Shown: one piece after another, positions 13,608-63,537 of the stretch | How positions within the stretch are numbered: position 1 is the stretch's first letter | Layout: every line of letters begins with the position of its first letter | NCBI RefSeq assembly: GCF_036669915.1 | Contig: NC_089312.1 | Coordinates: 251,991-315,990 of the forward strand | Direction of reading: 5' to 3' | Length of the DNA stretch: 64,000 nucleotides | DNA from: Pocillopora verrucosa | Taxonomy: Eukaryota | Translations under genes and position numbers: made by a program | The notes under the pieces: generated by a model | The model's database searches: none | Seen by the model: the letters and a program-made list of their open reading frames with translations, nothing else | Told to the model about the DNA's origin: nothing

Positions 13608-14777
13608 TTATATCCAGGCAATCTTTGCTGTACTTTTAGCGTCTCTAACTACCTTCTTTAAATTCTCAGCATCACGCAAAGAAATATTTTTACAATGTGA
13701 AAGATTCAACTGAGAGAGGCCTTTGCATGTTTTAACAAGCAATTTTGCTGACTCTACTGATATTTTACTGCACATTGAAAGATTAACAGACCTCAAAAGT
13801 GATAAACCTGATGACTGTATAAACTGTAAAATGATTCCGTCACTCAGTTTTTCAATTCCAGATAAATCTAGCTCTTGTAATTCTGTTGACTTGGAGAAAA
13901 TGGCTAAGAGATGTTCTGTGAGTGATTTGTGATGCGAAAAATGACAGCCATGGAGGTTAAGAATAGACAACTTTGGGCAAGCTTGTGTCAAGGTTATCCA
14001 TTTGCTTTCCTCTGAAGTTGAAACACGTATGTAACTGCCAGTTACTTCAGTGCAGTCTGCCATATTTAAAGTTTGTAAGGACCTGCAGCAGACCCCAATG
14101 ATCTCAGTATCCACTCTATCCATTCCAGAAATATCCAGCACAATCAACGAATTTCCAGCTTTGACCAAGAATTGTGCAATATGGGGATGAAATTTCATTG
14201 CCTTGTTATCACCAATGTGCAGAACCTTCAGATGGGTTAGTGAAGCAATGAACTCTAAAGACATTGCTGTGAGTGAAGTACAGCAGTTAAGTGATAGCTC
14301 ACATAATAAGGGGCACCTCTTGCAGAGAACTTTCATGCATGTATCTGTGATAAATGTGTACGACAAATCCAAAGAAACAAGTTTTAGGCTTGGAGCACTT
14401 ATGTCAAATTCATCAACTGAGTTTGTCATTGCAAAAGACACCTTTTGTATTTCTTGTTGAGAGTTCAATAGTTTTTGTATTCCATAGCTGGTTACGCCAG
14501 TTGATGACAAGTTGACTTCTTTTAACCTCTGGCACTTTGGATTTTTATCATCTCCACACAAACCATCTATACCAGCATCTGTGAGAAGGGTGCATGACTC
14601 CACCCGCAATACTGTCAGCTCAGGACATGATGTTCCAAGTAAGTTTAACACTTCATCTGTACAAGCCAAACATCCACTGAGATCAATGGACTGAAGACGT
14701 GGTAAGTCTGAAGGAATCTCTTTCAATGCTTTTGCTGAGAGGCGTGAACAGTTCTTCAGACAGAGCTGTGTAATTTT
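13608..14777 (-). CDS. cysteine-containing leucine-rich-repeat protein (FBXL / AMN1-like LRR_cc family), 3'-terminal coding exon with stop
   Basis: A long open frame (372-aa ORF in the track, extended upstream in frame to the acceptor ctcttcag|AAAATTACACAG at 14778-14785 on the minus strand). It holds ~12 tandem repeats of the ...L..L.L..C..ITD.G... type, e.g. CPELTVLRVESCTLLTDAGI and CPKLSILNLHGCHF; the stop codon lies at 13608-13610. Confidence 0.8.
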   Translation of the reverse strand, partial: KITQLCLKNCSRLSAKALKEIPSDLPRLQSIDLSGCLACTDEVLNLLGTSCPELTVLRVESCTLLTDAGIDGLCGDDKNPKCQRLKEVNLSSTGVTSYGIQKLLNSQQEIQKVSFAMTNSVDEFDISAPSLKLVSLDLSYTFITDTCMKVLCKRCPLLCELSLNCCTSLTAMSLEFIASLTHLKVLHIGDNKAMKFHPHIAQFLVKAGNSLIVLDISGMDRVDTEIIGVCCRSLQTLNMADCTEVTGSYIRVSTSEESKWITLTQACPKLSILNLHGCHFSHHKSLTEHLLAIFSKSTELQELDLSGIEKLSDGIILQFIQSSGLSLLRSVNLSMCSKISVESAKLLVKTCKGLSQLNLSHCKNISLRDAENLKKVVRDAKSTAKIAWI

Positions 14778-15432: not shown

Positions 15433-15844
15433 CTACAAAATAACAACAACATATCAAGTAAATGTTTGGATAACCAAAAATCTTCCTTTAAAGCTAAGGA
15501 AGGCTTCAGGCCCTCATTCATAAATATCACAGTTCAACGATTTATCATTTATATTCCAAGTTTCAAATCCCGCTAGTCTGACTCACTACTTAATTCATGC
15601 CATAAGAAACTAGGAAAAAGACACGAGAGATTCATGCAGTTACTCCACCTTCCTCGCCCCATTCCTCAAGAACCCCAGTTGACTCTCGACCACAAACAGA
15701 GTATGGCCTAAGTCATTACCGTGCATGTTACCTCAAAACAACTAAAATAATTATAAGTGCTGGGTTACAAAACCGTTTAAAATAGTTCAAAGTACATGTA
15801 CGCAGTTAAACTCACTCAAGCCATCAAACGGACCAAGAACATAC

Positions 15845-15942
15845 TTGAACCGATTAAGATCTGCGATCGATGCGTTGCACCACAGGCTCATATCTTTCGC
15901 GATACTCTCGAGGCTAAATCTTTCTAAAGTTTGCATGCTCAT
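15845..15942 (-). CDS. putative first coding exon of the LRR gene (MSMQTLERFSLESIAKDMSLWCNASIADLNRF), divergent from DCLRE1A
   Basis: An ATG at 15942 (minus) opens a 32-codon frame ending at the donor AA|gtatgt. The frame can be connected through a candidate 23-nt micro-exon (15577-15599, cctag|TTTCTTATGGCATGAATTAAGTA|gtgagt) to the 15432 exon, but this is speculative. Confidence 0.3.
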
Positions 15943-16225
15943 TCTTAACCTAATTTGAAAGATTTGGGATGTACAAAACGGTCACTGTCCGTTTGAAATT
16001 GATTAACTCTTCTCTTGCTTTAAGATTGCAAGAGGTGAAGTAATCTGTTGATCACTGCAACAATGCTCTATCCAGCGGTTATCGTCATGGAGAACATTAT
16101 GTGTAAGTATCGTACACGTAGTGTTTCAAATTAATTAAATATGGTGGACGCGGAGCGATTTTGACGGTTTTAACTCAGCGCAGATTATTCGCTGTAATAT
16201 ACATAATATATCACCTTTGTACGGC
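15943..16225. promoter_or_regulatory. short shared (bidirectional) promoter region between the LRR gene (-) and DCLRE1A (+)
   Basis: The putative start codons lie 283 bp apart in divergent orientation; this is inferred from the gene models only. Confidence 0.4.
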
Positions 16226-16709
16226 ATGGATGGAGAGGTGGAGGAAGATGATATCTGGGATGAAAAATCCTTAAAGCAGCTTGAAAGAAAGCGTGGACAG
16301 TCGGCACGCAGAGATGAAAAACCAACGAATTTACCGCGCAAAAGCCCAAAATCAAAGCGCACTGCCAATAATTTGAACAAACCTCAACGACGGTGTCGTT
16401 TGCAAGTCTCACAGAAAACAAAGACGGATAATTCTCAGACAATCATAAAGAACAGTGGGAGGGAACTAAAACGCAAGAGAGAAGATTCCTCCAGTAGTTG
16501 CAAGGAATTGAATGATGAGGACTCAACCTTCAGTCACCAATTATCTGGAAGCCAAGTTGACTCAGCTGTGGTTGACAACAAGATCACACCTCAAAAGAGC
16601 ATCGTAGATGGGTACTGCCCTAGATGCCAGATGCCTTTCGTTGCATTGGTTGGAGAATCTCCTGGGTGGCACGTCAGCGATTGCTTGGGAAGGAAATATT
16701 CTTTCATAG
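16226..16709 (+). CDS. DCLRE1A: DNA cross-link repair 1A (SNM1A/DCLRE1A) exon 1, containing a UBZ4-type zinc finger (CPRCQMPFVALVGESPGWHVSDC)
   Basis: The ATG is at 16226 (the track's start at 16217 is a TTG) and the donor is ATAG|gtaatt at 16709. A CxxC..HxxxC motif of UBZ4 type sits at the C-terminus of the exon, as in SNM1A. Confidence 0.8.
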
Positions 16710-17005
16710 GTAATTAAAGCGTACTTAGCTTAATAGATTTAGTTAGAACAATATCATTAATATTTCACTGCTGTTTAAACAGTTATACCCTCTATAAGTC
16801 AGCCCAGCCAGAAGTATGTGTAAATTTACTTGTTAACTTTGCTCTATGCAGAACCTCAGGACATACGTGGATTTGCATCAGGTAAAATTTCCTTGTGGGA
16901 CCATTTGACTGCAAGGATAGGAAAACTTATTCACTGATTCAGATAAACAAATCCGATACGTAAACAACTGAATCAATATAAAACAGAACCTTTCTTTTTT
17001 GTTAG

Positions 17006-17163
17006 GTGATTGTCCTGAAGGTGTCCACTGCAGATCAACATTTTCTCCTCATTATGAAAGATACTCTCACAAGCTTTTGGCTTCTGTCAGGAGTTATGGT
17101 CACATATACAGAGGAGATGAGGGAGAAAGTAGTGGAAACATAGATAATCTGATGCACAAACAA
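17006..17163 (+). CDS. DCLRE1A: DCLRE1A exon 2, with a PBZ-type (C-x5-C-x6-H-x5-H) zinc-finger motif: CPEGVHCRSTFSPHYERYSH
   Basis: The acceptor is ttttttgttag|GT and the donor AAACAA|gtaaga. Translation gives GDCPEGVHCRSTFSPHYERYSHKLLASVRSYGHIYRGDEGESSGNIDNLMHKQ and is phase-consistent with exon 1. Confidence 0.7.
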
Positions 17164-17368
17164 GTAAGAGTTTGACATACTGTAAAGACCTTTTAACTCT
17201 AAATCATTTCTTTTCCTGTGGCATAAACTTAGTAAGGAATCTGAAATAATTTTGGTAAGTTTAAAACTATATCTAAGGCATGAAAACTCTTACTATCAGA
17301 CTTTCTCATGAATTATTATTGGTGTTGACACTAATTGGAACTAACTTTTATTCTTTCCTTAACAAAAG

Positions 17369-18466
17369 CATGAAAGAGCAATCAAGTCTTCAAGACAATT
17401 GAACTTTTCAGAAAAACCATTTTTGTCTGAATCACTCCATAAAGATGAAGATGAGTGTGAATCTTCTGGGAGCCCTGGTGCTACAGTAGGTTTACCTTAT
17501 GGTAGAGCAAATGGAGCAATAGAAGCAGTACAATTAGATGAAAATAAAACATCAAAGGAATTACTATGCAATATTCATAGTTCCCCACAACATTCAAACC
17601 TTGGAGAATCTAGCAAATCTCATTCTTTGCCTCTACAAAGTGAGGCTTCAATGACCAAAGTTGAGACAGGAGATTTTCAAATGTCCTCTGATGATGATCT
17701 GTTTGGAGATCTTGAAGTCTTGGAAAATTTGTGTGAAAGTTCTTATGCAGCAGATCAGTTAACAAAAGACCAACAGAGTTATCACAGTCTTGAATGTGTT
17801 GATGTGTATGATAAGCCCAAGCAGTGTTTTATCCAACCTGTTGCTTCAGTTGTGGAGAAAAAGAGTAAAACAAGTGAACATACAAATGAGGCTGAGGTAA
17901 ATTTTACACCAAGTCCACATCCTTTGGATGTAAAGAAAATTAATGTCAAAGAAGATAATCTGGGTGAGCACTCAAGTATAGGCCAGAAACAACAGTCAAT
18001 TTTGGCATTTGTCAGAAAAGGGAAGGAAGCCTCTAAATCAAAGACATCTCTGAAACAAACTGATATAGGAGTGTTCTTTGGCTTGAAACCACTGAAGAAG
18101 CCAGCAAAAAATATAACAACTTCTCAGAATGGTGCCAGAATAACAAACTCTTCACAATCACAGTCTGCATCCCAAAGACAGGGTCACTGGGCAACAAGAA
18201 AAACATTCAACAATGATCGTAAAAACACAGAATTTACAACTGAAGGTCAAAGTTCAAGTCAAAGTGAAGGTCTAGCTGGTAGTAATAGAACCCAGACTCA
18301 ACGCAGTTGTCCATTCTACAAGAAGATCCCTAACAGTGCCTTTACTGTTGATGCTTTTCGCTATGGCAACATTCCTGGCTGTCATGCTTATTTTTTGAGC
18401 CATTTTCATTATGATCACTATATGGGACTGAATGGGAAATTCAAAAATCCAATCTATTGTAGCAAG
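17369..18466 (+). CDS. DCLRE1A: DCLRE1A exon 3 (long low-complexity linker plus start of metallo-beta-lactamase domain: …RSCPFYKKIPNSAFTVDAFRYGNIPGCHAYFLSHFHYDHYMGLNGKFKNPIYCSK)
   Basis: This is the 363-aa ORF; the acceptor is ttctttccttaacaaaag| and the donor AGCAAG|gtaata. The HxHxDH motif (FLSHFHYDHY) and the CPFYKKIP..FTVDAF block are the SNM1/Artemis MBL signature. Confidence 0.8.
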
Positions 18467-18578
18467 GTAATAGACTGTAGGGTTTATTAATATTTGATGT
18501 GGGAGGGCACCCTAATCATGAGGTTACTCGATCAGAAATGATAACTTCTTGATGTTCAAATGAAATATAAAGGGGTTA

Positions 18579-18613
<35 letters not shown>

Positions 18614-19140
18614 AGAGTATATCCTTAATAATAGTAAGGATAATATTATAGTTGGGTTCTGTTTTTATGTATCTCATTGCTACAAGCCTTGTCATGCATG
18701 ATGATCAGATTTGTGAAAGATTTTGGAAAGCTGGTTTATTAACTTAGAACAGACTCCTTTTTGACAGATGTTAACAATTACCTGCACCTTATAAACCTCT
18801 TATTTAGAACATCAACACAACTTTGCTGATAGTTTGAAACTTACTGACACTGTTTGGCTCTGACAACCAGATGAACAACGGCAGAACTGACCAATCAGTT
18901 TTCACATACCAAACCTCCAAAGCCTTAACTGACAAACAACTCTTCACTTGATTCTAGAAAAGACATATGCTCATATTTTTGAACTGTCAATAAAAAATTT
19001 CTCTCAGAATTGGTCTCACTCAGACAATTAGAGAAGACAATCATAATTGGGTAATATAACTCCACTATGGTATATTATTTGATAAAAACAGCCAGTAATT
19101 GATTGAAGAATTAGTGCTCACTTATAATTTTTTTGTTAAG

Positions 19141-19259
19141 ATCACTGCAAATCTGGTGATATCCAAGCTGTGTGTTAAAAAAGAGTTTGTCCATCCACTT
19201 CCCATGAATGCACCAACCATTGTGGAAAATGTTCAAGTTACACTTCTGGAGGCAAACCA
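19141..19259 (+). CDS. DCLRE1A: DCLRE1A exon 4 ([39 protein letters not shown])
   Basis: The acceptor is tttttttgttaag| and the donor CA|gtaggg. It aligns with human SNM1A ITGNLLKNKLHVQEQYIHPLPLDTECIVNGVKVVLLDAN. Confidence 0.8.
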
Positions 19260-19439
19260 GTAGGGACTACTAAGTTTGTTACTTATCACTTTAAAATTAA
19301 TAAAATTACTTTAAGTGAAATATGTTTAGTAATTAAAATAATGACTCATAATGACTTAGATAGAAGGATAAAATCTGTTTTGAGTGGCATTCTCAGCAAA
19401 ACATGGCCTATATTTTTCATTGAACTTTTTTTTTTTCAG

Positions 19440-19501
19440 TTGCCCTGGAGCTGTATTGTTTGTGTTCCAGTTCTCTTCTGGCCAGACTTACTTACACACA
19501 G
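19440..19501 (+). CDS. DCLRE1A: DCLRE1A exon 5 (HCPGAVLFVFQFSSGQTYLHTG)
   Basis: The acceptor is tttttttttttcag| and the donor ACAG|gtttag. It matches human HCPGAVMILFYLPNGTVILHTG. Confidence 0.8.
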
Positions 19502-19854
19502 GTTTAGCTTCATTTTGGTTGATATTTAATTAAGATACTTTTGCCACATGTGATATGTAAGTATTCAAAAATGCAATTATTCTACTGTAAGATTTACAAA
19601 GATTGTAGCTTTTCATCATGCTGTCATTTATGTACCACGTACAAAGCAGCATGCTTGGTGATTGCTCTCATGACATAACCAACCAATTGATGAACAATGT
19701 CATGTCTTGAATGTGACCCTGAACAGTCCATGACATCCCAGCTAAAGAATGTCAGTTTACAATCAAAGTATCACTTTCTACATCCCTTGTGACAACAGTA
19801 CCTGCGGAAGTTTCCTCAAGTACATTTTAAAGTATTACTTAATTTATTTTTAAG

Positions 19855-19933
19855 GTGACTTTCGAGCCTCTCCTGAAATGGAAAGGTATCCAGAGTTACA
19901 TTGTAAGATTGATGTCCTGTACCTTGACACCAC
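19855..19933 (+). CDS. DCLRE1A: DCLRE1A exon 6 (GDFRASPEMERYPELHCKIDVLYLDTT)
   Basis: The acceptor is ttttaag| and the donor AC|gtaagt. It matches human GDFRADPSMERSLLADQKVHMLYLDTT. Confidence 0.85.
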
Positions 19934-20028
19934 GTAAGTACATCTACACTGACATGTTTTTTCGATCTGTTATGTAATTACGGAATAATCTTCAGTATTT
20001 ACAACTTGTTTTTTTAAAAACATTTCAG

Positions 20029-20174
20029 GTACTGTGATCCAAATTACTCCTTTCCTCCTCAAGAGGAAACCATCAACTTTGCTGTTTCAAAAGCTGTGCA
20101 AGCATGCAAACAAAACCCAAAGACACTGATAGTTTGTGGCTCATATACAATTGGGAAAGAACGTGTCTTTCTTG
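20029..20174 (+). CDS. DCLRE1A: DCLRE1A exon 7 ([48 protein letters not shown])
   Basis: The acceptor is catttcag| and the donor CTTG|gtgagg. It matches human [48 protein letters not shown]. Confidence 0.85.
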
Positions 20175-20403
20175 GTGAGGACTTTTAAAATCTCAGTTTA
20201 ATATATTTTTGTGAGATGGTACAGAGGAGAGAATTCTTAATTCAGACACAGGAGACTGCGATTCTACAATTTCAGCAAATATCAAGGCTTTGTGTGATAG
20301 TCACTTTTTAATAAGATTGAATTCAATTTTGTTGCTTAACTATCATTGGCACCAATAATTAAATGGGAACTGTTTGTTGATATTGTTTTGTGTTTATGTT
20401 AAG

Positions 20404-20558
20404 CCATTGCAGAAGCACTTGGATGTAAAGTTTGTGTAGAAAAACAAAAGAAAAAGGTTCTGGACTGTCTTGAATCCAATCAAATAAATTCTCTGATCAC
20501 AACTGACTGGAAGGCGGGAAGAATTCATGTGTTGCCAATGGCAAAGCTAACGCTGCAG
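20404..20558 (+). CDS. DCLRE1A: DCLRE1A exon 8 ([52 protein letters not shown])
   Basis: The acceptor is tgtttatgttaag| and the donor GCAG|gtaaaa; it is phase-consistent. Confidence 0.8.
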
Positions 20559-20663
20559 GTAAAAGATGAATTTTTAGTGCTGAAATTGTATTCTTCACTT
20601 TCATGGCTAAGATAAAGCAACTTGAAATTTATTATTATGGTGGAAAACAGAACATGTATTCAG

Positions 20664-20763
20664 TTAACCCTTTAACTCCCATGACTGATAAAGACTGAAT
20701 TTCTCCTTACAATATCAATACAATATCAAGTACACTAGTTATGAGGGTAAAGAAAAGTATTAA
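20664..20763. mobile_element. short/internally deleted copy of a piggyBac-like MITE (TTAA|CCCTTTAACTCCCATGACTGATAAAGACTGAATTTCTCCTTACAATATCA…) in a DCLRE1A intron
   Basis: It shares the 5' terminal ~55 bp with the copies at 32503, 56450 and 58327, and is flanked by TTAA at 20664-20667; the 3' end is poorly defined. Confidence 0.4.
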
Positions 20764-21015
20764 TCAGGGGATTATTAGTTGATCCAATACCCAATTTTCA
20801 GAGCTGATATTATAAGAATTGTGTCACAGACAGTAAGGAGAATTTGATGTTATGAGTGAAACAAATTCTGAACTCCAGATATTTTTTTAGATGTCTCTGC
20901 TGTGGTTTTATCAGTTGCAAAGTATTCAAATTAAAATAAGATACATATAGAAAGATGTTTAAGATGGAATATAATTTCAAAGCATATTTTCATCATCAAT
21001 TTTATTTATTGATAG

Positions 21016-21157
21016 AATCTAACAACATATTTGGGGGCTCATAAGTCACAGTATGCTGAACTCCTGGCATTTAAACCCACTGGGTGGGAACACAGTGAAA
21101 AGCAAGAGGACTTGTCGATGATTAAACCTTCCAAGAGAGGAAATGTGACAATATATG
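21016..21157 (+). CDS. DCLRE1A: DCLRE1A exon 9 ([47 protein letters not shown])
   Basis: The acceptor is ttattgatag| and the donor TATG|gtaagt. It matches human ...ILAFRPTGWTHS...GNISIYG. Confidence 0.85.
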
Positions 21158-21312
21158 GTAAGTACAGTGATATGCTAGATTTAACTTACTCAGCCCATCT
21201 TGTTTTTTCCACCCAACTTCACTCCTCTCCTAAAGTCAGTTTTTTTCATTACTGACAATGATGTAGTTCCTAGGGTTTGTTATATTGTTGTTTTCTTCGT
21301 CTTTATGCTTAG

Positions 21313-21479
21313 GTGTTCCTTATAGTGAGCATAGCAGCTTCAGGGAACTGGAGAGATTTGTTAAGTTTCTTCAGCCAAAGAGGATCATTCCTACTGTTAA
21401 TGTCCATTCCGCAGAAAAAAGGGCTCAGATGCAGGCCATCTTCAACAGCTGGTTATCGAAGGATTCCTTAAAGTTTTGA
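21313..21479 (+). CDS. DCLRE1A: DCLRE1A terminal exon ([55 protein letters not shown])
   Basis: The acceptor is ctttatgcttag| and the stop is TGA at 21477-21479. It matches human [31 protein letters not shown] (beta-CASP C-terminus). Confidence 0.85.
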
Positions 21480-23106
21480 GCAATGTTAAGTCTTAATTTA
21501 ATGGCAGGTTGTCAAAGAACATGCCAAAAGAGAGAAATAATATTTGATGATCGTCTATGAAGCCTACAAAATGTTAAGTATTTTGTAATTCCCATGAAAT
21601 GAAAAATTGTACAGTAGTATTTTTCTATAACCATTATTTATGGGTATTTTGTTGCATCAATCTTGAGAATTGTTTACAGTAAGTACTCAAGATATAATTC
21701 AAATATAGGTACAGCACATATGGATAAGCATAATTTTTTCTGTATTTGAAGCTACATGTAGCTGCTTTTATGTTAATAAGTTTAAGCTCTCAGTTGATTT
21801 TCTGATGCTTCATTATTTTAAATGCACTCAGATAGCCTTATTTGAACTGGTGAATGAAGGAACTCTTATTTATCCACAGAAGTGAAATATATATATATTC
21901 TTATTGTACTTATACTTACATGTACTTATTTATACATCACTGACATAAAATCATACTTGACTGTAAATCACTGTAATTTTCTCACAATTTAGACTAGAAG
22001 GACAGTGCCAGTAATGATTCTAGTTGGCTTATCTTCAGATCACAATTAATTTCATACTAGACTAGAGTATCTGAACTTTTTAAGAGATTAGCCAATAACC
22101 TGCTGATCTGCAGGAACATGTGAACTTTGCTTGTGGAGTGATTTAGCATTTGGAAGTTGATTTTGTGTTCAGCTATGTGGAAAATAAACAACTTTGTTGG
22201 TAAAAGCAAAATTATAAAGGTTGTGTGAGTTTCTCAGGCCCTTAGAGCATGTACAACCTAGGACCAAAAGTAAGGACTGTATTGTAAAATCATATTTGTT
22301 TCTTGCAAAGTTACTGGGCCTTCAGTTTCTATATGGTTCACAACCATCTCTACTTAAAATTACTTTTCATCTGCAAGACCATGTAGTTTTCAAATTAAAA
22401 TAAAAAAAAAATTGAGTGACAATCAAAGTGTAAACTGAATTCTGAGTCAGTTTTTTTACCTTACATATTCCATTAAATATTACCATTGTACTCTGTTTTT
22501 GGAATTTCAGCTTACTTCTATTTATTTAATAGAGAAAAAATTGTCTTAGACTAGAATATAAAAAGTACAGATTGAATGATAGTATGGAAATAGTTTATTC
22601 ACACCCTGTGGAAGCCAGCAATATTTTTATAGAATTGATATTATTAGAGGTTCAAGTACTTTCATACATGTTGGAAACAATGCACTTTGAACTTGGCATT
22701 GAAAAGTATTGAACTTTTAAATGAGCCTGCAAGTCTGATACGAAGGTTTTAAACAAGGCAGAGGCAAGCTCTCCTATGAACTTCGAGAAGCTTTGGACAT
22801 AGAAAAGTTTATTGCCTTGTCAAATTCTTATCAAAATCATTAATTACTGACTGTCACTTGAAGCAATTTTGTTTCATTCTTGCTGGCCAGTTTTCATTTA
22901 CCAAGTGGACTGAAAGGGGTTTTTATTGCAGCTGATATTTTTAGCAATTTATATTTCAGACCAGTGGCTTGTTTTTTATATGAATCCTGAGATACATTTA
23001 TGTGTGTCCAGCTTGTTATTCTTTCCAGGAAATGAAGATTTTTCATCCTTTGGCATTAACTGCTTTCTGTTGTGACATTGCTTTCTCATCTGCATCATGT
23101 GCTCTA

Positions 23107-32502: not shown

Positions 32503-32818
32503 CCCTCTGACCCCAAAGAGTGATCAGCATCTAGTTTCTCCTTACAATATCAGCTAGGAACCAAACAGTCTCTGCGGCTCAGTGGTAGAGCATCAGAGTG
32601 CAGAATCCAAAGGTCTGAGGTTCGATTCCTCATGAGGACTCAGAATTTTGTCTTTGTCCCACGCTCATGACAAGACAAAAAAACCATCTTTCTCCACACA
32701 TTAAGGTCATGAGAATAAATGAGATCACCAACTAAAACAAATTCTCCTTGCCAGCACCTCAGAAAATGTAGACAGAACAGAAAAGAAAATATGCATACTG
32801 ATTTTAGGGTGGAAAGGG
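32503..32818. mobile_element. piggyBac-like MITE copy (TTAA|CCCTCTGACCCCAAAGAGTGATCAGCATCTAGTTTCTCCTTACAATATCA … GGGTGGAAAGGG|TTAT) in MVP intron 17, carrying a nested tRNA-derived fragment
   Basis: It has CCC..GGG termini and a TTAA/TTAT flank. The internal blocks (ATTAAGGTCA(C/T)GAGAATAAATGA(A/G)ATCACCAACTAAA, AATTCTCCTTG(T/C)CAGCAC, ATATGCATACTGAT) are shared with the copies at 34319, 56450 and 58327. An extra ~135-bp insert at 32565-32700 is absent from the other copies. Confidence 0.6.
32570..32641 (+). repeat. tRNA-derived fragment (pseudo-tRNA / SINE head) nested inside the MITE: D-arm GCTCAGTGGTAGAGC, T-arm GGTTCGATTCC
   Basis: The D- and T-arms are canonical. The acceptor stem does not pair (5' CTCTGCG vs 3' TGAGGAC) and the anticodon loop would be 16 nt, so this is not a functional tRNA gene. 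Confidence 0.5.
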
Positions 32819-39945: not shown

Positions 39946-40364
39946 GGGATCAAATGTGTCTCACTTGTCTGTGAGAACAATAGACTGTGGAGGGCGGCTT
40001 TGTTACCAACTTCCGCCATTCTCCGCCATACGGCATGCTTTCAATTCCTAGAATTCTATTGGCTCACAGCGGAACAAAGCGCCCCACACGCAGAATAGCC
40101 ACAAGGAAAACAGATATTGTTCCATTCGGCATTGTTCAAAGACGGCTTGGATTTCCACCATTTGTTTCTATTCCAGTGTTGAAACTTCGCCTCGGGACCA
40201 CCAAGAAGGTTCCGAGTTGAAGATTTGCGTCTGAAATTCGAGCTCGCTAGTTTGTATAACTCGCGCGTTTTGCGCCTCGTGACGTGTTTCCTATTCTATC
40301 ACGTGATTACAAGAAATGTCATTTGTGTTCCAGTGATATTGCTAGTTGTGATCAAACTCCAACA

Positions 40365-41714
40365 ATGGCTACGGTTGCGAGTGGAATGAATAACGCGATC
40401 CCAAACGGACCTGAACTTGGTGAAGTGAAAATAGAGAAAGTAGATCAGATCAAGACGAGCGATCAGAACTTCAACTGGAAAATAACGACGACGGTGCCTT
40501 CATATAACGATGCCAATTCCCTGAACACAACAACAACCGTAACAGAAAACACGTCTTCGGACAACAGTAATAATGTAGTAGTGGCAGAATGTCCTCAAAT
40601 CGATGCTGCTACTCTAAAGCTTGCTACTTTGCCAATGAAGACACAGATCATGCCTGGCCCTTACTCTGAAGTTCAGCTGCCCAAGAAGGAAAATCATGTC
40701 AAACGGCCGATGAATTCGTTCATGGTTTGGGCGCAGTCAGCGAGAAGAAAACTCGCCGAACAGTACCCGCACGTACATAATGCTGAATTAAGCAAAATGC
40801 TCGGAAAACTCTGGCGAATGCTTCCCCCTGCTGAAAAGCAACCGTACGTGGATGAGGCGGCAAGGCTAGACAAAAGACACAAAGAGGAATTTCCAGACTA
40901 TAAATATCGACCAAGAAGGAAGCAGAAACCGATGAAACGTCCGTATGTTCAAACGCGAGTTGCTGTGACACCCGGGTGGCCTGCTGGACAGGCTCAAACT
41001 CCAATCGCAATGAACGGGACGGCTACCATCGCAGCTCAAAACGGCACCTTTCCCACTACAGCCTTGACACAGAATTCCCAAGTGGCTCAGGTTTTTCCTC
41101 AAGGAATTCAGACAGTCCCAGTACAAGCAGTGAACAATGGAGGCACGGTAACGTATGCGCCAATCGGTAGTGTAGGATACGTACCAACGACTCCTATTCC
41201 GGGAGGAAGTATGATTCTACGACCAACGTTCGTTACAACTGCAGTAACGAATCCAACATCAATCCAACCTGCAGCTTCTGTAACCGTGCAGGCGGTCAGA
41301 TCTACCGTAGCAACAACTCTGGCGACTCCAAGTTATGCTATCCCGTTAACACAGTACGCTGGAGCGCCGATTATTGTTTCGAGCGGTGTCAATAACCTGG
41401 TTAACTCTACCGACAATACAAACATGGCTACAGAAAAACCTACGGAAAACGTACCTCTGGCTACCATAAGCATTCCCGCTTCAATGGCTGGGCCCATGAA
41501 CAATCATTTCGCCACTATTGCGGCTGCAGGACTTGTGGCGCCCAATTCGGATCCTGTCCAACCCAAAACCTCGGAAAGCCAACATGCGGTGGATAATAAT
41601 TCCGTTCTGACTGTTTCTGTGTCGAGAAATGGCACTGAGAACCAAGTTGATGCGTCAAACGCAGAGCATCCACAGAGTATTGAGGTGAAAACAGCTGAGG
41701 GATGTCGGATTTAA
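40365..41714 (+). CDS. SoxE-group HMG-box transcription factor (Sox8/9/10-like), apparently intronless, 449 aa
   Basis: The HMG box [76 protein letters not shown] is near-identical in pattern to vertebrate SOX9 ([43 protein letters not shown]…[28 protein letters not shown]). An N-terminal dimerisation-like region and a T/P/Q/V-rich C-terminus are present. The first in-frame ATG after the last upstream stop is 40365 (the track's 40284 start is not an ATG start), and the stop TAA is at 41712-41714. Confidence 0.85.
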
Positions 41715-46571: not shown

Positions 46572-47063
46572 TCATTTCATTTCTTGCACCTTCAAGCAAA
46601 ATGGCAATAACCCTTTCTTAGATTTTCCTCCTCGCAGACGTAGATCCAACCACTTCTGCCTGTTAGGAATTGTCTTGTCATTGAGGACATCAATGTCATA
46701 TGCATCAATATCCACCCCTGATAATGATGACAGAACTGAACTACTACTCATGGTACTAGCATTAGATTCAAATTCCCCATCATTATCTTCAACAGTTGAT
46801 TTCTTCTTCCTTGGCTGCAACATCAGCAGACCGATAGCACCATCAAGATGCCGAAACACATCTAACTTCAGGAGGTGTGACTGAATTTCAGATGAGAGGT
46901 TGCTTGAGTCAGATGCAATCCATACTTTGATGTAACCAAAATCTAAGCTAAGCTGCTGGGCACCATAAAAGCTGTGGAATTGATTTGAAAAGGAAAATAA
47001 ATTCTTCACTTGCTGACTTCTTCTGTAATCAATACCACAATTGACTGGCAACTGATTGTACAA
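46572..47063 (-). CDS. open frame with stop (163 aa: …FGYIKVWIASDSSNLSSEIQSHLLKLDVFRHLDGAIGLLMLQPRKKK…DIDAYDIDVLNDKTIPNRQKWLDLRLRGGK…), likely 3'-terminal coding exon(s) of the minus-strand gene whose large exon is at 51899-53498, or a separate small gene
   Basis: A long ORF with an acidic/serine-rich low-complexity stretch is untypical of random AT-rich sequence; no homolog was recognised and the exon boundaries are not resolved. Confidence 0.3.
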   Translation of the reverse strand: MYNQLPVNCGIDYRRSQQVKNLFSFSNQFHSFYGAQQLSLDFGYIKVWIASDSSNLSSEIQSHLLKLDVFRHLDGAIGLLMLQPRKKKSTVEDNDGEFESNASTMSSSSVLSSLSGVDIDAYDIDVLNDKTIPNRQKWLDLRLRGGKSKKGLLPFCLKVQEMK

Positions 47064-48635: not shown

Positions 48636-51600
48636 AATAACATCAGAAAATATTCTGTTGGGAGATTTTGACCACTTCAGCCTAAACTAGTTGTGGCCTA
48701 AACAGTTAATCCCAGTGGAGGGTGATTTTAGTTTCAAATGATGGAAGTAAGGTTAGAGTTAGGGTGCCATTAATTTTACCAGAGTGGCGACTCTTCTTCC
48801 AACTCTTGCCAACAGGCATGGCCTCCTGAAAGAATTCTGTTGAAATTTTCGTCAGATCTCTTGAGAACAGAACCCATGACTTCTTCAATAAACCCTAGTG
48901 AACAGAAAAATCACAGGTTTTGCAAAGAGCACATCACAATCAAAATATATGCAACTACCAGATCTTGGCACGAAGTATAAAGAACTTATTCCCGCCAGTC
49001 TCAGAAACCACCTAGCAACTTGAAACATTTTCAAGTGAATCCATAACACCTTTGTGCAGACTTAACAAAGTACTCTAAGATGGTGGCTGAGGGCAATCAG
49101 ACACATTTGATTGCTAAGCACTATATGACAATAATAAAGAAAATGTTGAAGATGGACAACATTTATGACATTTCACATCAAGGAAATGACAAGAACTGAC
49201 CTCCAAGTTGCTTCTTTGCTCCTGTAAAAGACTGTACTGTACAGAAAGAGAGTTCCAACTGATGCTATCACTGTGAACTGCACTCAGTGACTGTACAAGG
49301 AAAAATGTCTTCTTCACTGACTGTAGAAAAAGTGGTAAGTCCCACTGCGTCAGAAGCAGAAACTGCTCAAGGGACCATAAGGATAAAAAATGATGTATTT
49401 TGGTATCAAACCAGTTAAATCCAAAGGACAGCAACGAATGAAAGCGGCACAGACTGGGAAAAACTGACAGTGTTAGAGCTCTGGCACTTCTATTGGCATG
49501 AGGTTCCAAGTGGCTAGATGATCGTTTCCAGTAACCTGCCATTTCAAAAATGCTTTCAAGTGGATCCAAGAGACTAACTATGGATTGTGCTGTCTGCGTA
49601 CCTGGGATGCTGTCTGTAAGTTCACTGTCCATGCGGCATTTGTCAGACAGACAGGAACCAAGAACACCACTGAAAGCTAATGAGAAAAAAATGCAATAAC
49701 TTCAGAACTGGTCACAGTAGAAGGCAAGGTAAGAGAAGCAATTATTTAATTAACTATCAGTTTCAAATGAAATGAAACCTAGTAATGAACAGATACAAGA
49801 ACCTTTAGGACTGTCACTAATTTAATTGTGTGGTGCAGAGTTGCACATAATATAGAAACTATTGCTACTTTTATTGAAGAGCTTTTAGGGCAATGTTTAT
49901 GTGCACACAGAGAAGATCAGCAGATCTTAATCTTACCTGAATCCCAGCTTGATGCAGAGGCCAGACAATGAAGATAGCAGCTTACAGCTTGAAGGGAACT
50001 AGTACCAGCTGGTGGCAAACAGCCTGTGAACAGAAAGGAAAAATAAAACAATTCTCCTCCTTTAAAATTTATATTTGGCTCACTACAGCCATGTGTGGAG
50101 CCATTTTATCATACATGAAACAACCAGTGAACATTATATTCAATAATTTGTACAAACATTTCAAGAAATCATTCATGAAAAGGATAGAACAGGTTATGTC
50201 ACCCACAACTATACAAGGAAAAACTTTAATCTTCAACCAGCTAACACATTAGATAAGCAGTGGACATAGTTCAACCAGGATCCACCTAGAAAAATAACTG
50301 CATTCATAATAAGCAAATTTTGCCTAGTTGCACTGTAAATCCAGCTGTTTAACAACATCTCTTAGAATTGTGATTCAACCAAAAATGAATTAATTAACAT
50401 TTTCAGCTCTACTGACAAAGCCAAAAGGCACTATGCAAATAACAAGCACAAACAACAAAAATAAATAAATCTATTGCATCAAAATCAAGGGAAGATATAA
50501 AATAAAATCTATATGAATTAAAAAATTAATTTATTATGATCATATTAAACATCAGGTCCAGCTTGCAGAAAAAGTACAAGCATGTAATTTTTCAGAAATG
50601 ACTTCAAATGAATCATGCAACTTGATAAATAAAGCATTTCTTGATAAGGATGAATCATCATATTTTTTGTGATGATATTGCAATGTAAATTAAAGGTCAT
50701 TGTTCAATATAAATAAGGACCTATCCCCTGGACTATAAAAGGTAATAATTTATTCTCATTTTGCACGAGGCAGAATTTCCTCAAATCAAACAAATTTCCG
50801 TCATTACAGCTGGTGTATCCATTAACATCTTCTCACACAAAGACGATAAATAAAAAACTTCATGTTACTTTATATTAAAATTGTAACTTAATTTACATCT
50901 GCAACTTACATTCAAAAAAAGAAATTTAATTAATCCTGAGAGAAAAAAAGAGAAGTCTAATTTCTTTCCAGCTAACAATTACTATTTAAAAATCATTCAC
51001 TTTTAAAATATTAGGTTTGCTAGTGATTGCAGTGTGACATCAGAAATGAGCTATAAATTTTTGGCATTTTAAAACCGAAGTATTGACCAATTCATAGATG
51101 TAATTCATAGAGTTTTGAAAAAAATAATAATCCATTTGTTGCAGACCAATCTTAATTACAAAAAATATGAGAGCAAAATCCTCACACTGATCAATTAAGG
51201 ATTTGACCACAAATGTAAATTTTACAAAAGCAGTGATAGCTGATGTGATAGATATCACTCAAGAACACCATATGCAGATACAACAAAATGTACATGATAG
51301 GATTTTCATTGGCATAAATGTAGATTTTAACACAATGCTTAATTAATTACTATTACATGAAGTTTTCAATGGCTTTAGACTCAGAGGGAAGGAAGTAACT
51401 AAAACTAAATTGATGTTTCCCCAAAGAAGGAAAAACAAAATATCTTGGGGGTCTCAAAAAAAGAGAAATTTATCCACTATGAGGCCAAAATTATTTCCAA
51501 GTTAAGAAAAAAGTCATCTTTACACATCCATTCCTGTTTGAGAATATGAAAGAGGAGACTGATGGGTCTGTATACAAACAGTTTTCTGAGCTTTGATCTT

Positions 51601-51898
51601 TATTCAACAGCTGGAACAATTATGCAGAAAAAGGCAAGCAAAAGGTTTGGTACATTATAATGGCTTATAAGGCATTTTACCATTTTCTACATTTATCACA
51701 CATTTGGGTATAATTGCATACATTTCAAGCAAAAATTAATAATTTCTTCATTCAAGATAACTCAACAGTTTGTATTTTCATATTCTGGATAAACTGCTAG
51801 TAAAGGAAATGTTTTCCTCCTTGTTTTTTTTCCCCTCTACTTTCTTATTCAAACCTTCCTTTACTTCTCAGATGTCCCCTGTACTCTTTCAAACTTAC

Positions 51899-53498
51899 CT
51901 GACAGACGTAGTGACTCCATCATGCGAACAACAACCATCAAAAGAAAATCAGACCATAAGAACAATGGACCCAAGGCCACATTTTGCATTAAGTTGCCTA
52001 TAGATTCTTGATTTTCTGCCATCAGTGCCACCAGCTGCTCTCCAAAACTGGCCCAAAGCATAGTGCTATAATCATAATGTAACTGCTTTGTTGTTTCAGA
52101 GTCTAAGGGTGCGTTCCACTGAACACGCTTGTTGAGTCTGGGTGATCCTGGACTTGAGCTGTGCCTGAGAATGCCATGACCCTCCTGATGGTGCAGTAAT
52201 GAACTTGTTGACCCTCCAGCCTCCTCAGCTGTTGATGTCCCCTGCAGATCAGCATCTTCACTCCTTGAACTTGAGGTCAGCTGCTCTAATGGCGGCAACT
52301 GAATCACATTTTTCCTCTCACCACTAACATGACGGCTTAAGATAAGTGTTGTTGAGGTAGCAAGTTGTGATATTAAATTACTGAAAAATTTCTGCTCCTC
52401 TGAATCAAATGAAAGCAATGGAGAGTCCGGCTCGAGTTTCAGGAGCGGGATTTGGTTGCGGCTTAACACTGACAACACTCCATTTTTGAGTGTACCTCCC
52501 TCAAGTCTTACATTCCCTCCAGTACATACCACCCCAAAGTCTTTCCATTCGAAGTTTGTAGCAAAGTCGTACTTTAACGTCCGAGTAACCTCCTGATGTT
52601 CGCTTACCAATTCATAAACGTGACCAGCCAAAATACGAGAACGTTCACAAGCAACGCCATTCAAAAGTTTGTTCAGTGACAATAAACAAACACTAGAAAC
52701 AGCTGTAGTTGAAACTGCAGTTTCTCGACCCTTCGACTGCACAAAATTTCTAATCTCGCTCACACTTAAAAGTTCTCTTTCGTCGCTCTGAAAATTTCTA
52801 GTGTACTCAAAAAGGCGATTGAAATCTTCAATTCCCTGGCAAACAGCACTTAAACCTTGCTGACTCAACCACCATTTGCATTTTTCGGCAAGGCGCAACA
52901 CGCACGATAAAATAATTGAAATGAGCGATATACTCGTATCTGCTAATTGCGAGAGCGCTTTATTCACCACTTCCAAGTCCTCCAGCATGTCTGGCACACA
53001 TTTGCGAAGCCATGGATCGGAAAAGATAAGTTTTCTTATCGCCAGTCGGTACATACATTGTGTTTTTGCTGCATGGCAAATGTCGTGAAATCTTTCAACT
53101 TTGAATGGGAACTCGCTTGGAATTGGCATTTCACCATCTAAATAGGCCATATACTTTTCCACTGTTTCTTCTAGCTCTTGTACAAACTTAGTGGAAGATT
53201 CAAGGCGTACCAGGCACTCTCTCGCCAAAACAATCTTTGAGCGATCAAGAAATTTCTGGCCGATATCGGTGAAAATCTCGCACAAAGGAACACCTTGCTC
53301 AAAATGCCCAAAGCTGCCGGGAACATGTTGAGGTTTCAAGCACGAATTTCTGGTTAAACTTACACTTTTGAACGCTTTTTTGAGAGTCCAAATGTTCTTT
53401 TTTATGTCCGTTGGGGCAATTTGAGTAACAGAGAGTCTTTGGAAAGAGTTGTTGATGCCATCGTTGCTAGCGGCTGCCGAAGACGAGCTGAAATTCAT
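51899..53498 (-). CDS. large first coding exon (533 codons) of an unidentified conserved-looking protein; continues via donor TCAG|gtaagt into downstream exons
   Basis: A 1.6-kb uninterrupted frame on the minus strand starts at an ATG (53498) and ends exactly at a consensus donor (cag|GTAAGT, minus coordinates 51898-51893). Predicted features are mixed helical and low-complexity regions and an S/T/P-rich patch (SSPGSPRLNKRVQW); no homolog could be assigned from memory. Confidence 0.6.
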
Positions 53499-62623: not shown

Positions 62624-63537
62624 TCACGTGGGGGCAAGAAATTCTGACAGTAAGCTTCCCTTCCGGGCAAGTAGAGCATTTGGACTATCCATTTCCACAA
62701 TCCTCCCTTGTTCCATAACAACAACGCGGTCGTGGTGCAGAATTGTTTCCAGTCCAATAGGTCCATACGCAACCGTGATCACTGAAGAATTGGCAAACTG
62801 GTTCTTGACAACACTATGGATTATGCGCAATGTGGTGAAGTCGACGCCTGAGACAACTCCATCAAAAATCACGATTTTCTTCTTCTGTAGTATCGCACGA
62901 GCGAGAGACAACAACAGCAGCCGAGAATTGGAGAAGTTCACAGACTGTGTCATCATGTAGTCTAGCCCCCCAGGCAGTCCTTTCACATATTCTTTCATTG
63001 TCACGGTATCCAAAACGTTCCACAACTCTTCGTCTTCATGTTTCTCTTCCGGGTCAAGGTTTTTTCGTATTGAAGCCGTAAAAATGAATGGTGTTTGCTG
63101 AAGTGTGCAGAAAGCTTTCCTCGCTTCTCGGAGATTAATCGTTGCTAGTGAAATATCATCGACCCATACCTCCTGTTGGGATCCTTTTGACAGAAGCATA
63201 AGTTTAGAAGCAAAGGAGATCGTCTTTGCGTTTTTTTGGCCTATGATACAAACTTTCTCTCTTGGCTCAATGCTTAAAGACAACGTTTCAAATGATACCC
63301 GTCGACGACCGTAGGTGTGAGACAATAAGGAATCGCTGACACACACGGCGCCCTCCTTCGGCCAATCTTCGGGTAGCTTCGTGTCATTCTGGTGACTAGA
63401 CTCGGAGCGCATGTCATGGAAACTCATCAATCGGGCCGCTGAAGTCATGTCCTGTTCTATGTTTTTGACGAGAAATGGAATAATAGCAATTCCTACAACA
63501 AGCTGTCTGACAAATGTCAACGACAGAGCGACAAAAG
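62624..63537 (-). CDS. 3'-terminal coding exon of an ABCC/MRP-type ABC transporter (end of TMD2 plus NBD2) whose NBD2 is degenerate in every catalytic motif; the gene continues beyond the window end
   Basis: It aligns collinearly with the MRP1 C-terminus (…LPEDWPKEGAV / WPQVGRVEF…; …IRKNLDPEEKHEDEELWNVLD / [21 protein letters not shown]…; GLPGGLDYMMTQ / [41 protein letters not shown] / LLRKTKILVLDEATAAVD). The motifs are altered as follows: Walker A GRTGAGKSS becomes GQKNAKTIS; the signature LSVGQ becomes FSNSR; Walker B DE becomes DG; the H-loop AHR becomes AYG. The acceptor is ttttttctttttcag|CT (minus), the stop TGA is at 62624-62626, and the 305-codon frame is uninterrupted. Confidence 0.7.

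What the first reader, a model, noticed from the sequence alone, without database searches (positions are those of the whole stretch)
16226..21479. Complete SNM1A/DCLRE1A orthologue carrying both a UBZ4 and a PBZ (PAR-binding) zinc finger
Exon 1 ends with CPRCQMPFVALVGESPGWHVSDC, a CxxC…HxxxC UBZ4 finger as in vertebrate SNM1A. Exon 2 encodes CPEGVHCRSTFSPHYERYSH, which fits the PBZ consensus C-x5-C-x6-H-x5-H found in APLF/CHFR and reported in SNM1A homologues of some lineages. The MBL/beta-CASP catalytic core ([25 protein letters not shown]) is fully conserved over exons 3-10. The tandem ubiquitin-binding and poly(ADP-ribose)-binding modules in front of the nuclease are notable for recruitment to damage sites.
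Basis: partly seen in the sequence, partly recalled or inferred. Interest (0 to 1): 0.5.

Follow-up and report, generated by a model that had tools for sequence, protein, structure and literature searches.

The report
Ordinary coral-type SNM1A repair nuclease gene
This is an intact cnidarian copy of the DNA-repair nuclease SNM1A; its ubiquitin-binding and PAR-binding-type zinc fingers are real, but they are the standard layout of this protein in humans and across animals, so the finding is correct and ordinary.

Summary
Window 16226-21479 (+) contains a 10-exon gene with GT-AG at every intron. The C-terminal part is an SNM1A-type MBL/beta-CASP nuclease: E = 7e-124 to human DCLRE1A structures, against 1e-39 for Apollo and 1e-23 for Artemis. 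The UBZ4 (aa 131-153) and PBZ-type finger (aa 164-183) align without gaps, at 49% identity, to the human SNM1A peptide 114-181. That peptide was shown in 2024 to bind ubiquitinated PCNA and PAR. The tandem is not special. 87 of 146 listed hits of an exhaustive profile search have both fingers adjacent (modal spacing 33 residues). Those hits include echinoderms, molluscs, insects, crustaceans, vertebrates and corals. One caveat concerns the PBZ. It is the SNM1A subtype, which lacks the aromatic and basic PAR-contact residues of APLF/CHFR. It does not reach Pfam's PBZ model. PAR binding is therefore inferred from the human orthologue only. Verdict: correct, already known, low interest.

The parts
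16226..21479 (+). SNM1A/DCLRE1A orthologue, complete CDS from ATG to TGA: 10 exons, 869 aa
   Evidence: Assembly and translation give no internal stop and all introns are GT-AG. The protein is colinear with coral and vertebrate orthologues, with no indels at the junctions in the catalytic domain.
16226..16709 (+). Exon 1 (aa 1-161 plus the first base of codon 162): N-terminal motif, basic/NLS-like stretch, UBZ4
   Evidence: The start codon is supported by the conserved N-terminus: MDGEVEEDDIWDEKSL here, MEEDEEDIWEEKSL in corals, and EEDIWEYKS in vertebrates.
16241..16273 (+). Conserved N-terminal motif EEDDIWDEKSL (aa 6-16); no function was found for it in the papers read
16616..16684 (+). UBZ4-type CCHC zinc finger, CPRCQMPFVALVGESPGWHVSDC (aa 131-153)
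   Evidence: C131, C134, H149 and C153 are invariant in the orthologues. The segment aligns without gaps to the human UBZ. A weak profile hit to the FAAP20 UBZ gives E ~0.4.
17006..17163 (+). Exon 2 (aa 162-214): PBZ-type finger and the following LLA..R segment
   Evidence: The exon 1-2 junction yields the linker KYSFIG|DC. This matches KYSYIGDC in the coral proteins and keeps the 33-residue finger spacing.
17011..17070 (+). SNM1A-type PBZ (C2H2) finger, CPEGVHCRSTFSPHYERYSH (aa 164-183)
   Evidence: C164, C170, H177 and H183 are invariant in the orthologues. The orthologue profile's best PDB hits are the APLF PBZ entries 2kqb/2kuo, E = 0.004, with all ligands aligned. It is homologous to the human C155/C161 finger.
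17369..18466 (+). Exon 3 (aa 215-580): fast-evolving, low-conservation linker, acidic motif, PIP boxes, and the start of the MBL domain
17684..17716 (+). Acidic motif SSDDDLFGDLE (aa 320-330), conserved in corals and seen in a fish orthologue
17990..18013 (+). Second, degenerate PIP-like box QQSILAFV (aa 422-429), found only in the cnidarian sequences in the sample
   Evidence: Present in 6 of 6 cnidarian sequences and in none of the vertebrate hits.
18056..18079 (+). Canonical PIP box QTDIGVFF (aa 444-451)
   Evidence: It aligns to the human PIP peptide QMDIGVYF, whose Y562/F563 were validated. It is present in nearly all orthologues.
18401..18421 (+). MBL motif 2, HFHYDHY (H559, H561, D563, H564). 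D563 corresponds to human D736, the nuclease-dead mutation site
19141..19259 (+). Exon 4
19440..19501 (+). Exon 5. MBL motif 3, ANHCPGA (H620), spans the exon 4/5 junction at 19252-19452
19855..19933 (+). Exon 6. MBL motif 4, GDFRA (D642), spans the exon 5/6 junction. Beta-CASP motif A, YLDTTY (D665), spans the exon 6/7 junction
20029..20174 (+). Exon 7
20404..20558 (+). Exon 8
21016..21157 (+). Exon 9
21313..21479 (+). Exon 10: beta-CASP motif B, VPYSEHSS (H821, 21318-21338); motif C, IIPTVN (21384-21401); stop codon
   Evidence: Pfam DRMBL covers aa 742-846, E = 9e-37.

Best explanation
The locus is an intact, single-copy-looking orthologue of SNM1A (DCLRE1A/Pso2 lineage) in a hexacorallian cnidarian, most likely a stony coral. 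The C-terminal ~345 residues form the MBL/beta-CASP 5'-3' exonuclease. In humans this enzyme digests past interstrand cross-links and chemically modified break ends. The poorly conserved N-terminal ~520 residues act as a recruitment arm with three short modules in the same order and spacing as in human SNM1A. These are a UBZ4 finger (ubiquitinated PCNA, retention), an SNM1A-type PBZ finger 33 residues downstream (poly(ADP-ribose), early recruitment) and a PIP box (PCNA). What is shown here: gene structure, domain identity, motif presence, orthology and phyletic spread. What is inferred from the human orthologue only: nuclease activity and binding to ubiquitin, PAR and PCNA.
For: The gene model is clean. 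Pfam DRMBL scores 126 bits against a cut-off of 22, and Lactamase_B_2 scores 35 bits against 27. A gapless 339-residue alignment to human DCLRE1A structures gives E = 7e-124, against 1.7e-39 for Apollo and 8e-24 for Artemis, and all metal-binding motif residues are conserved. The UBZ-PBZ segment is 49% identical, without gaps, to the human peptide used experimentally (E = 7e-26). The PIP box aligns to the human PIP peptide. The human modules were shown to bind PCNA-Ub, PAR and PCNA and to drive recruitment (PMC11199599; review PMC7607226). The nearest relatives are annotated coral DCLRE1A-like proteins, 83.5% identical to Oculina in the catalytic domain. The tandem architecture recurs in vertebrates, corals, echinoderms, molluscs, insects and crustaceans. 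The orthologue profile's top PDB hit is the APLF PBZ.
Against: No transcript evidence from this species is available. The exon 2/3 junction lies in a poorly conserved stretch and rests only on frame and splice consensus. Pfam's PBZ model does not hit the protein. The finger lacks the [FY] at position 3 and the basic pair after the second Cys that contact ADP-ribose in APLF/CHFR. The review PMC4756826 cites Oberoi 2010 for the view that it might not bind PAR. The structure model of the module has low confidence (pLDDT 57), and the fold match to the APLF PBZ is not significant.
Confidence: 0.93

Rival explanations
1. The gene is SNM1A, but the second finger is a PBZ in shape only. It is a structural or other-ligand C2H2 knuckle that does not read poly(ADP-ribose) in the APLF manner. 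Recruitment would then rest on the UBZ4 and the PIP box(es).
For: The canonical PAR-contact residues are absent in the query and in almost all orthologues: [FY] at position 3 in 3 of 134 segments, [KR] at position 9 in 0 of 134 and at position 10 in 4 of 134. Pfam PF10283 gives no hit for the query. The review PMC4756826 states that the SNM1A PBZ lacks critical PAR-binding residues. The finger has its own strongly conserved signature (ECPDGxxCxSTIPxH[YF][KR][KR][YF]xHxLLA), which suggests a ligand mode specific to SNM1A.
Against: The human GST-PBZ-UBZ peptide binds PAR in slot blots, and binding is lost with C155A/C161A. Olaparib phenocopies the PBZ mutant in laser-stripe recruitment. The query finger is colinear with the human one.
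Confidence: 0.2
2. The locus is a paralogue (SNM1B/Apollo or SNM1C/Artemis type) or a decaying pseudogene, not a functional SNM1A.
For: None beyond the lack of transcript data for this species.
Against: The score to SNM1A structures is 418 bits, against 139 for Apollo and 87 for Artemis. The SNM1A-specific N-terminal modules are present. There are no stops or frameshifts across 10 exons, and all catalytic residues are kept.
Confidence: 0.02

Closest known systems
Human SNM1A / DCLRE1A (UniProt Q6PJP8; structures 4B87, 5AHR, 5NZW)
   Same: The module order is the same: N-terminal EEDIW motif, UBZ4, PBZ 33 residues later, PIP box, MBL/beta-CASP nuclease. The catalytic domain aligns without gaps over 339 residues, and all metal-ligand motifs are identical in type. 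The UBZ-PBZ peptide is 49% identical without gaps.
   Different: The protein is shorter (869 aa against 1040 aa) because the linkers are shorter. The linker regions are only ~24% identical to the vertebrate orthologues compared. Motif 2 reads HFHYDH instead of HFHSDH. A second, degenerate PIP-like box lies 22 residues upstream of the canonical one; it is seen in all six cnidarian sequences and in none of the vertebrate ones.
Coral DCLRE1A-like proteins (Oculina patagonica, Montipora capricornis, in NCBI)
   Same: These are the nearest relatives, 77-84% identical in the catalytic domain. They share the linker KYS[FY]IGDC between the fingers and the same PIP and PIP-like boxes.
   Different: Overall identity is only 51-58%, so the window's species is not one of those in the database. 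The Oculina isoform found lacks the UBZ exon (isoform X2).
APLF and CHFR PBZ fingers (PDB 2KQB-2KQE, 2KUO)
   Same: The ligand spacing C-x5-C-x6-H-x5-H is the same, as are the Gly at position 4 and the aromatic residue at position 18. The APLF PBZ entries are the best PDB match of the SNM1A module profile, E = 0.004.
   Different: The finger lacks Tyr at position 3 and the Tyr-Arg-Lys-Asn core after the second Cys; the query has E166 and R171-S-T-F. It is a single finger, not a tandem pair. It is below Pfam PBZ significance.
UBZ4 fingers of RAD18, FAAP20 and others
   Same: The CCHC ligand pattern C-x2-C-x14-H-x3-C is the same, with an acidic residue before the last Cys (D152).
   Different: Sequence similarity to solved UBZ4 domains is only marginal (FAAP20 E ~0.4). 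SNM1A has its own CxxCQMPF signature, seen in 122 of 126 sequences.

Membership tests
SNM1A/DCLRE1A (beta-CASP metallo-beta-lactamase nuclease, SNM1/Pso2 group) | MBL motifs 1-4, including HxHxDH, the motif 3 His and the motif 4 Asp | tested here: met
   HFHYDH (H559, H561, D563, H564), ANHCPGA (H620) and GDFRA (D642) align to the human motifs.
SNM1A/DCLRE1A (beta-CASP metallo-beta-lactamase nuclease, SNM1/Pso2 group) | Beta-CASP motifs A (acidic), B (His) and C (Val in the SNM1 group), plus the Pfam DRMBL domain | tested here: met
   YLDTTY (D665), YSEHSS (H821) and IIPTVN are present. PF07522 scores 126 bits against a cut-off of 22.
SNM1A/DCLRE1A (beta-CASP metallo-beta-lactamase nuclease, SNM1/Pso2 group) | Closer to SNM1A than to the paralogues Apollo (SNM1B) and Artemis (SNM1C) | tested here: met
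   418 bits to SNM1A, 139 to Apollo and 87 to Artemis. The database hits are named DNA cross-link repair 1A.
SNM1A/DCLRE1A (beta-CASP metallo-beta-lactamase nuclease, SNM1/Pso2 group) | N-terminal UBZ, PBZ and PIP recruitment arm in the human order | tested here: met
SNM1A/DCLRE1A (beta-CASP metallo-beta-lactamase nuclease, SNM1/Pso2 group) | 5'-phosphate-dependent 5'-3' exonuclease activity | not testable with these tools
   This needs the recombinant protein.
UBZ4 ubiquitin-binding zinc finger | CCHC ligand pattern C-x2-C-x(n)-H-x3-C, conserved across orthologues | tested here: met
   C131, C134, H149 and C153 are invariant in alignments A1 and A2.
UBZ4 ubiquitin-binding zinc finger | Significant profile similarity to established UBZ4 domains | tested here: inconclusive
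   The FAAP20 UBZ entries (2muq/3wwq) give E = 0.36-0.44. Pfam UBZ_FAAP20 matches 2 of 18 segments, best E = 0.079. The PROSITE UBZ4 profile is not available here.
UBZ4 ubiquitin-binding zinc finger | Homology to a UBZ4 with demonstrated ubiquitin or PCNA-Ub binding | tested here: met
   Gapless alignment to human SNM1A 114-181, where the C125F mutation abolishes PCNA-Ub binding.
UBZ4 ubiquitin-binding zinc finger | Binding of ubiquitin | not testable with these tools
   This needs a biochemical assay.
PBZ (PAR-binding zinc finger, APLF/CHFR type) | C2H2 ligand spacing C-x5-C-x6-H-x5-H, with Gly at position 4 and an aromatic residue two positions before the last His | tested here: met
   CPEGVHCRSTFSPHYERYSH. 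The ligands are invariant, with G in 128 of 134 segments and [FY] in 132 of 134.
PBZ (PAR-binding zinc finger, APLF/CHFR type) | Consensus PAR-contact residues: [FY] after C-x, and a basic pair after the second Cys (consensus in PMC4756826) | tested here: not met
   The query has E166 and S172-T173. Across orthologues, [FY] occurs in 3 of 134 segments, [KR] at position 9 in 0 of 134 and at position 10 in 4 of 134. Human SNM1A is the same. I therefore file it as the SNM1A subtype, not as a canonical APLF/CHFR PBZ.
PBZ (PAR-binding zinc finger, APLF/CHFR type) | Match to Pfam PF10283 (PBZ domain) | tested here: not met
   The query gives no hit at E <= 10. Only 1 of 18 orthologue segments matches, at E = 0.0094.
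PBZ (PAR-binding zinc finger, APLF/CHFR type) | Profile-level relatedness to solved PBZ structures | tested here: met
   The SNM1A module profile ranks the APLF PBZ entries 2kqb/2kuo first of 177,635 PDB sequences, E = 0.0038-0.0051, and both APLF fingers align on all four ligands.
PBZ (PAR-binding zinc finger, APLF/CHFR type) | PBZ fold | tested here: inconclusive
   The AF2 model has pLDDT 57, and ~50 over the PBZ. The only Foldseek PDB match is the APLF PBZ2 entry 2kqc, but at E = 9.2.
PBZ (PAR-binding zinc finger, APLF/CHFR type) | Binding of poly(ADP-ribose) | not testable with these tools
   The human orthologous peptide binds PAR in a slot blot. The cnidarian finger has not been tested.
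PIP box (PCNA-interacting peptide) | Q-x-x-[ILMV]-x-x-[FY]-[FY], conserved and aligned to a validated PIP box | tested here: met
   QTDIGVFF at aa 444-451 aligns to human QMDIGVYF, whose Y562/F563 were validated.

The most novel reading that the evidence does not exclude
The SNM1A finger is a distinct, anciently fixed PBZ subtype (ECPDGxxCxSTIPxH[YF][KR][KR][YF]xHxLLA). It has been conserved from cnidarians to humans without the APLF/CHFR ADP-ribose-contact residues. It would therefore read PAR, or a related ligand, by a different binding mode. Cnidarian SNM1A additionally uses two PIP-type boxes in tandem, QQSILAFV plus QTDIGVFF.
Probability: 0.2. Interest if true: 0.35.

Novelty: already known. 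Interest (0 to 1): 0.1.

Why it matters
It matters little beyond annotation. The result gives a clean gene model for SNM1A in a cnidarian. It also shows, together with the phyletic survey, that the three-part recruitment arm (UBZ4, PBZ-type finger, PIP box) characterised in human cells in 2024 predates the cnidarian-bilaterian split. The one useful by-product concerns the SNM1A-type PBZ. It lacks the canonical PAR-contact residues in essentially every animal lineage sampled, yet it is strongly conserved. This sharpens the open question of how this finger recognises PAR.

Tried and rejected
1. A single-sequence phmmer search of the PBZ segment against the PDB returned only spider-toxin noise (E > 3). 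I replaced it with the orthologue profile search.
2. Pfam scans at E <= 10 gave no PBZ or UBZ hit for the query.
I re-ran it without that row. The resulting model was low confidence (pLDDT 57), so the fold search carries almost no weight.
4. The word-indexed homologue search with the 80-residue module scored only 96 candidates and returned 6 fragments. It was uninformative for phyletic spread and I replaced it with the exhaustive representative search.
5. Paralogue (Apollo/Artemis) and pseudogene readings were considered and rejected.
6. I checked the 2025 CSB-SNM1A preprint for a role of the conserved N-terminal motif. The interaction it maps is in the C-terminal domain, so it offers no explanation.
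7. I did not try to identify the species. No protein above 58% overall identity exists in the searched collection.

Full report
**Observation.** I read window 15800-21900 and listed ORFs. I then joined ten + strand segments: 16226-16709, 17006-17163, 17369-18466, 19141-19259, 19440-19501, 19855-19933, 20029-20174, 20404-20558, 21016-21157 and 21313-21479. Every intron begins GT and ends AG behind a pyrimidine-rich tract. The joined CDS is 2610 nt and encodes 869 aa plus a stop, with no internal stop.

The quoted strings are present:
- CPRCQMPFVALVGESPGWHVSDC at aa 131-153, window 16616-16684.
- CPEGVHCRSTFSPHYERYSH at aa 164-183, window 17011-17070, which fits C-x5-C-x6-H-x5-H.
- [12 protein letters not shown] and YLDTT.

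The one transcription slip is motif B. It reads VPYSEHSS here; IPYSEHSS is the human version.

**Identity of the gene.** Pfam finds DRMBL (PF07522, 126 bits, cut-off 22) and Lactamase_B_2 (35 bits, cut-off 27). Against PDB sequences, aa 524-862 align without a single gap to human DCLRE1A structures (4B87, E = 7e-124, 418 bits). The paralogues score far lower: Apollo 139 bits and Artemis 87 bits.

With the 698-1040 construct numbering, the offset between query and human residues is 173. Query D563 therefore corresponds to human D736, the nuclease-dead site used in PMC11199599. D665 corresponds to D838 and H821 to H994. All metal-binding residues are retained.

The best database relatives are annotated coral proteins. 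[quoted passage not shown] In the catalytic domain, identity is 83.5% to Oculina, 77-79% to the Montipora protein and its closest relative in the list (an unnamed sequence), and 54-55% to vertebrates. The window therefore comes from a hexacorallian cnidarian, probably a stony coral, whose protein is not in the collection.

A full-length alignment shows no insertions or deletions at exon junctions in the catalytic domain. The exon 1/2 junction produces the linker KYSFIG|DC, which matches KYSYIGDC in coral proteins. Two of those come from 2.5-2.8 kb contigs, too short to hold an intron-containing copy of this gene, so they are probably transcript assemblies. The exon 2/3 junction lies in a non-conserved stretch and rests only on frame and splice consensus.

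**The N-terminal modules.** The published human peptide covering the UBZ and PBZ (residues 114-181, sequence printed in PMC11199599) aligns to aa 123-190 with 33 of 68 identities and no gap (E = 7e-26). The human PIP-box peptide aligns to aa 442-461, where QTDIGVFF matches QMDIGVYF.

In the 66 homologues, nearly all full-length vertebrate and coral proteins have all three motifs. The first Cys of the PBZ almost always lies exactly 33 residues after the first Cys of the UBZ, as it does here. All eight zinc ligands are invariant in the module alignments.

**What the literature already says.** Three points come:
- Ahel et al. 2008 predicted a PBZ in human SNM1A.
- Yang et al. 2010 described its UBZ and PIP box.
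- Swift et al. 2024 (PMC11199599) showed three things. The PBZ-UBZ peptide binds PAR, and binding is lost with C155A/C161A. It binds ubiquitinated PCNA, and this is lost with C125F. The PIP peptide binds PCNA. The three 'highly conserved' motifs act in concert to recruit and retain SNM1A at complex breaks.

**Phyletic spread.** A word-indexed search with the module found only fragments. An exhaustive HMMER search of 1.84 billion cluster representatives found 285 proteins at E <= 0.001 and 121 at E <= 1e-10. Of the 146 listed hits that were new to this search, 87 have both fingers adjacent, with spacing of 30-37 residues and a mode of 33. Of those 87, 67 also contain HxHxDH.

Nine of ten divergent full-length representatives carry source names. 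They come from a crinoid, a sea star, a brittle star, a gastropod, two bivalves, a leafhopper, a shrimp and a porcelain crab, and most are named DCLRE1A. The architecture is therefore ancestral at least to cnidarians plus bilaterians.

**How far the PBZ label can be pushed.**
- Pfam's PBZ model (PF10283) does not hit the query, even at E <= 10. It touches only 1 of 18 orthologue segments, at E = 0.0094.
- The converse test is positive. A profile built from SNM1A modules ranks the APLF tandem-PBZ entries 2KQB and 2KUO first among 177,635 PDB sequences (E = 0.004-0.005). Both APLF fingers align on all four ligands.
- The structure prediction of the module was poor (pLDDT 57). The sole Foldseek PDB match, APLF PBZ2 (2KQC), is not significant at E = 9.2.

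Position by position, the finger shares C1, P2, G4, C7, H14, the aromatic residue at position 18 and H20 with APLF. It has E at the position of the first PAR-contact Tyr. It has R-S-T-F where APLF has Y-R-K-N.

Across 134 distinct SNM1A fingers, an aromatic residue at position 3 occurs 3 times. A basic residue occurs never at position 9 and 4 times at position 10. This agrees with the review PMC4756826, which cites Oberoi 2010 that the SNM1A PBZ lacks critical PAR-binding residues.

I therefore file the finger as the SNM1A-type PBZ subtype. It is orthologous to a human finger with reported PAR binding, but it is not a canonical APLF/CHFR PBZ. PAR binding by this cnidarian protein is an inference.

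**UBZ4.** The CCHC pattern and the acidic residue before the last Cys (D152) are present. Similarity to solved UBZ4 domains is only marginal (FAAP20 E ~0.4). Membership rests mainly on orthology to the validated human finger.

**Mechanism, as far as it is supported.**
- Shown here: an intact gene that encodes a nuclease core with all catalytic residues, preceded by the UBZ4, PBZ-type and PIP modules in the human order.
- Inferred from human data: the PIP box and the PBZ-type finger bring the protein quickly to PCNA- and PAR-marked lesions. The UBZ4 retains it on RAD18-ubiquitinated PCNA. The exonuclease then trims cross-linked or chemically modified 5' ends.

**Rivals.** One rival is that the finger is PBZ-shaped but does not read PAR (about 0.2). 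The other is a paralogue or pseudogene (about 0.02).

**Verdict.** The feature is already known and ordinary, so interest is low.

**Minor by-products.** These are listed under things noticed in passing:
- A second PIP-like box specific to the cnidarian sequences.
- Two further conserved short motifs in the linker regions.
- The neighbouring genes.

Noticed in passing
window 17990-18013 (aa 422-429): A second PIP-like box, QQSILAFV, lies 22 residues upstream of the canonical PIP box. All six cnidarian SNM1A sequences have one at this place (QQSLLSFV, QLSIKSFA, QLSMMSFV, QLSMMPFV, and a fully canonical QKSLLSFF in P0065). None of the ~60 vertebrate orthologues does under the same pattern.
   Followed up: partly
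window 16241-16273 (aa 6-16): The N-terminal motif EEDDIWDEKSL is conserved from corals (EEDIWEEKSL) to vertebrates (EEDIWEYKS). I found no function for it in the papers read. The CSB interaction mapped in the 2025 preprint lies in the C-terminal domain.
   Followed up: partly
window 17684-17716 (aa 320-330): The acidic motif SSDDDLFGDLE sits in the otherwise fast-evolving linker. It is conserved in all four corals and resembles SESDDDLFSEF in a fish orthologue. It may be a short linear interaction motif.
   Followed up: no
window 15787-15942 (-) and 13608-14726 (-): A minus-strand ORF starts with ATG at 15942, only 284 bp from the SNM1A ATG. Further downstream on the minus strand is a 372-aa leucine-rich-repeat ORF (LRR_4 E = 6e-14). 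This looks like a head-to-head gene pair, possibly sharing a bidirectional promoter. I did not test whether the two minus-strand pieces belong to one gene.
   Followed up: no
window 40284-41714 (+): An uninterrupted 476-aa ORF carries an HMG box (PF00505, E = 7e-24), so it is Sox/HMG-like. It lies in a 2-kb block of 46.5% GC, against ~36% in the rest of the window.
   Followed up: no
window 46572-47063 (-), 49114-49632 (-), 51861-53498 (-): Two exon-sized ORFs match CCDC142 (E = 3e-21 and 1e-15). A nearby 545-aa ORF in a 42% GC block has no Pfam hit. It might be another exon of the same gene or something unrelated.
   Followed up: no
window 62624-63598 (-): A 324-aa ORF with an ABC transporter ATP-binding domain (PF00005, E = 3e-6) is probably one exon of an ABC transporter gene that runs off the window.
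   Followed up: no
window 32568-32640 (+): A weak Rfam tRNA match scores 31.4 bits against a gathering score of 29, E = 0.013. ARAGORN does not call it. It is probably a tRNA-derived repeat or a pseudogene.
   Followed up: no
P0001 (Oculina patagonica isoform X2), P0036, P0043: Some annotated orthologues begin inside or just after the UBZ and so lack it while keeping the PBZ. These are either alternative first exons that give UBZ-less isoforms or gene-model truncations.
   Followed up: no
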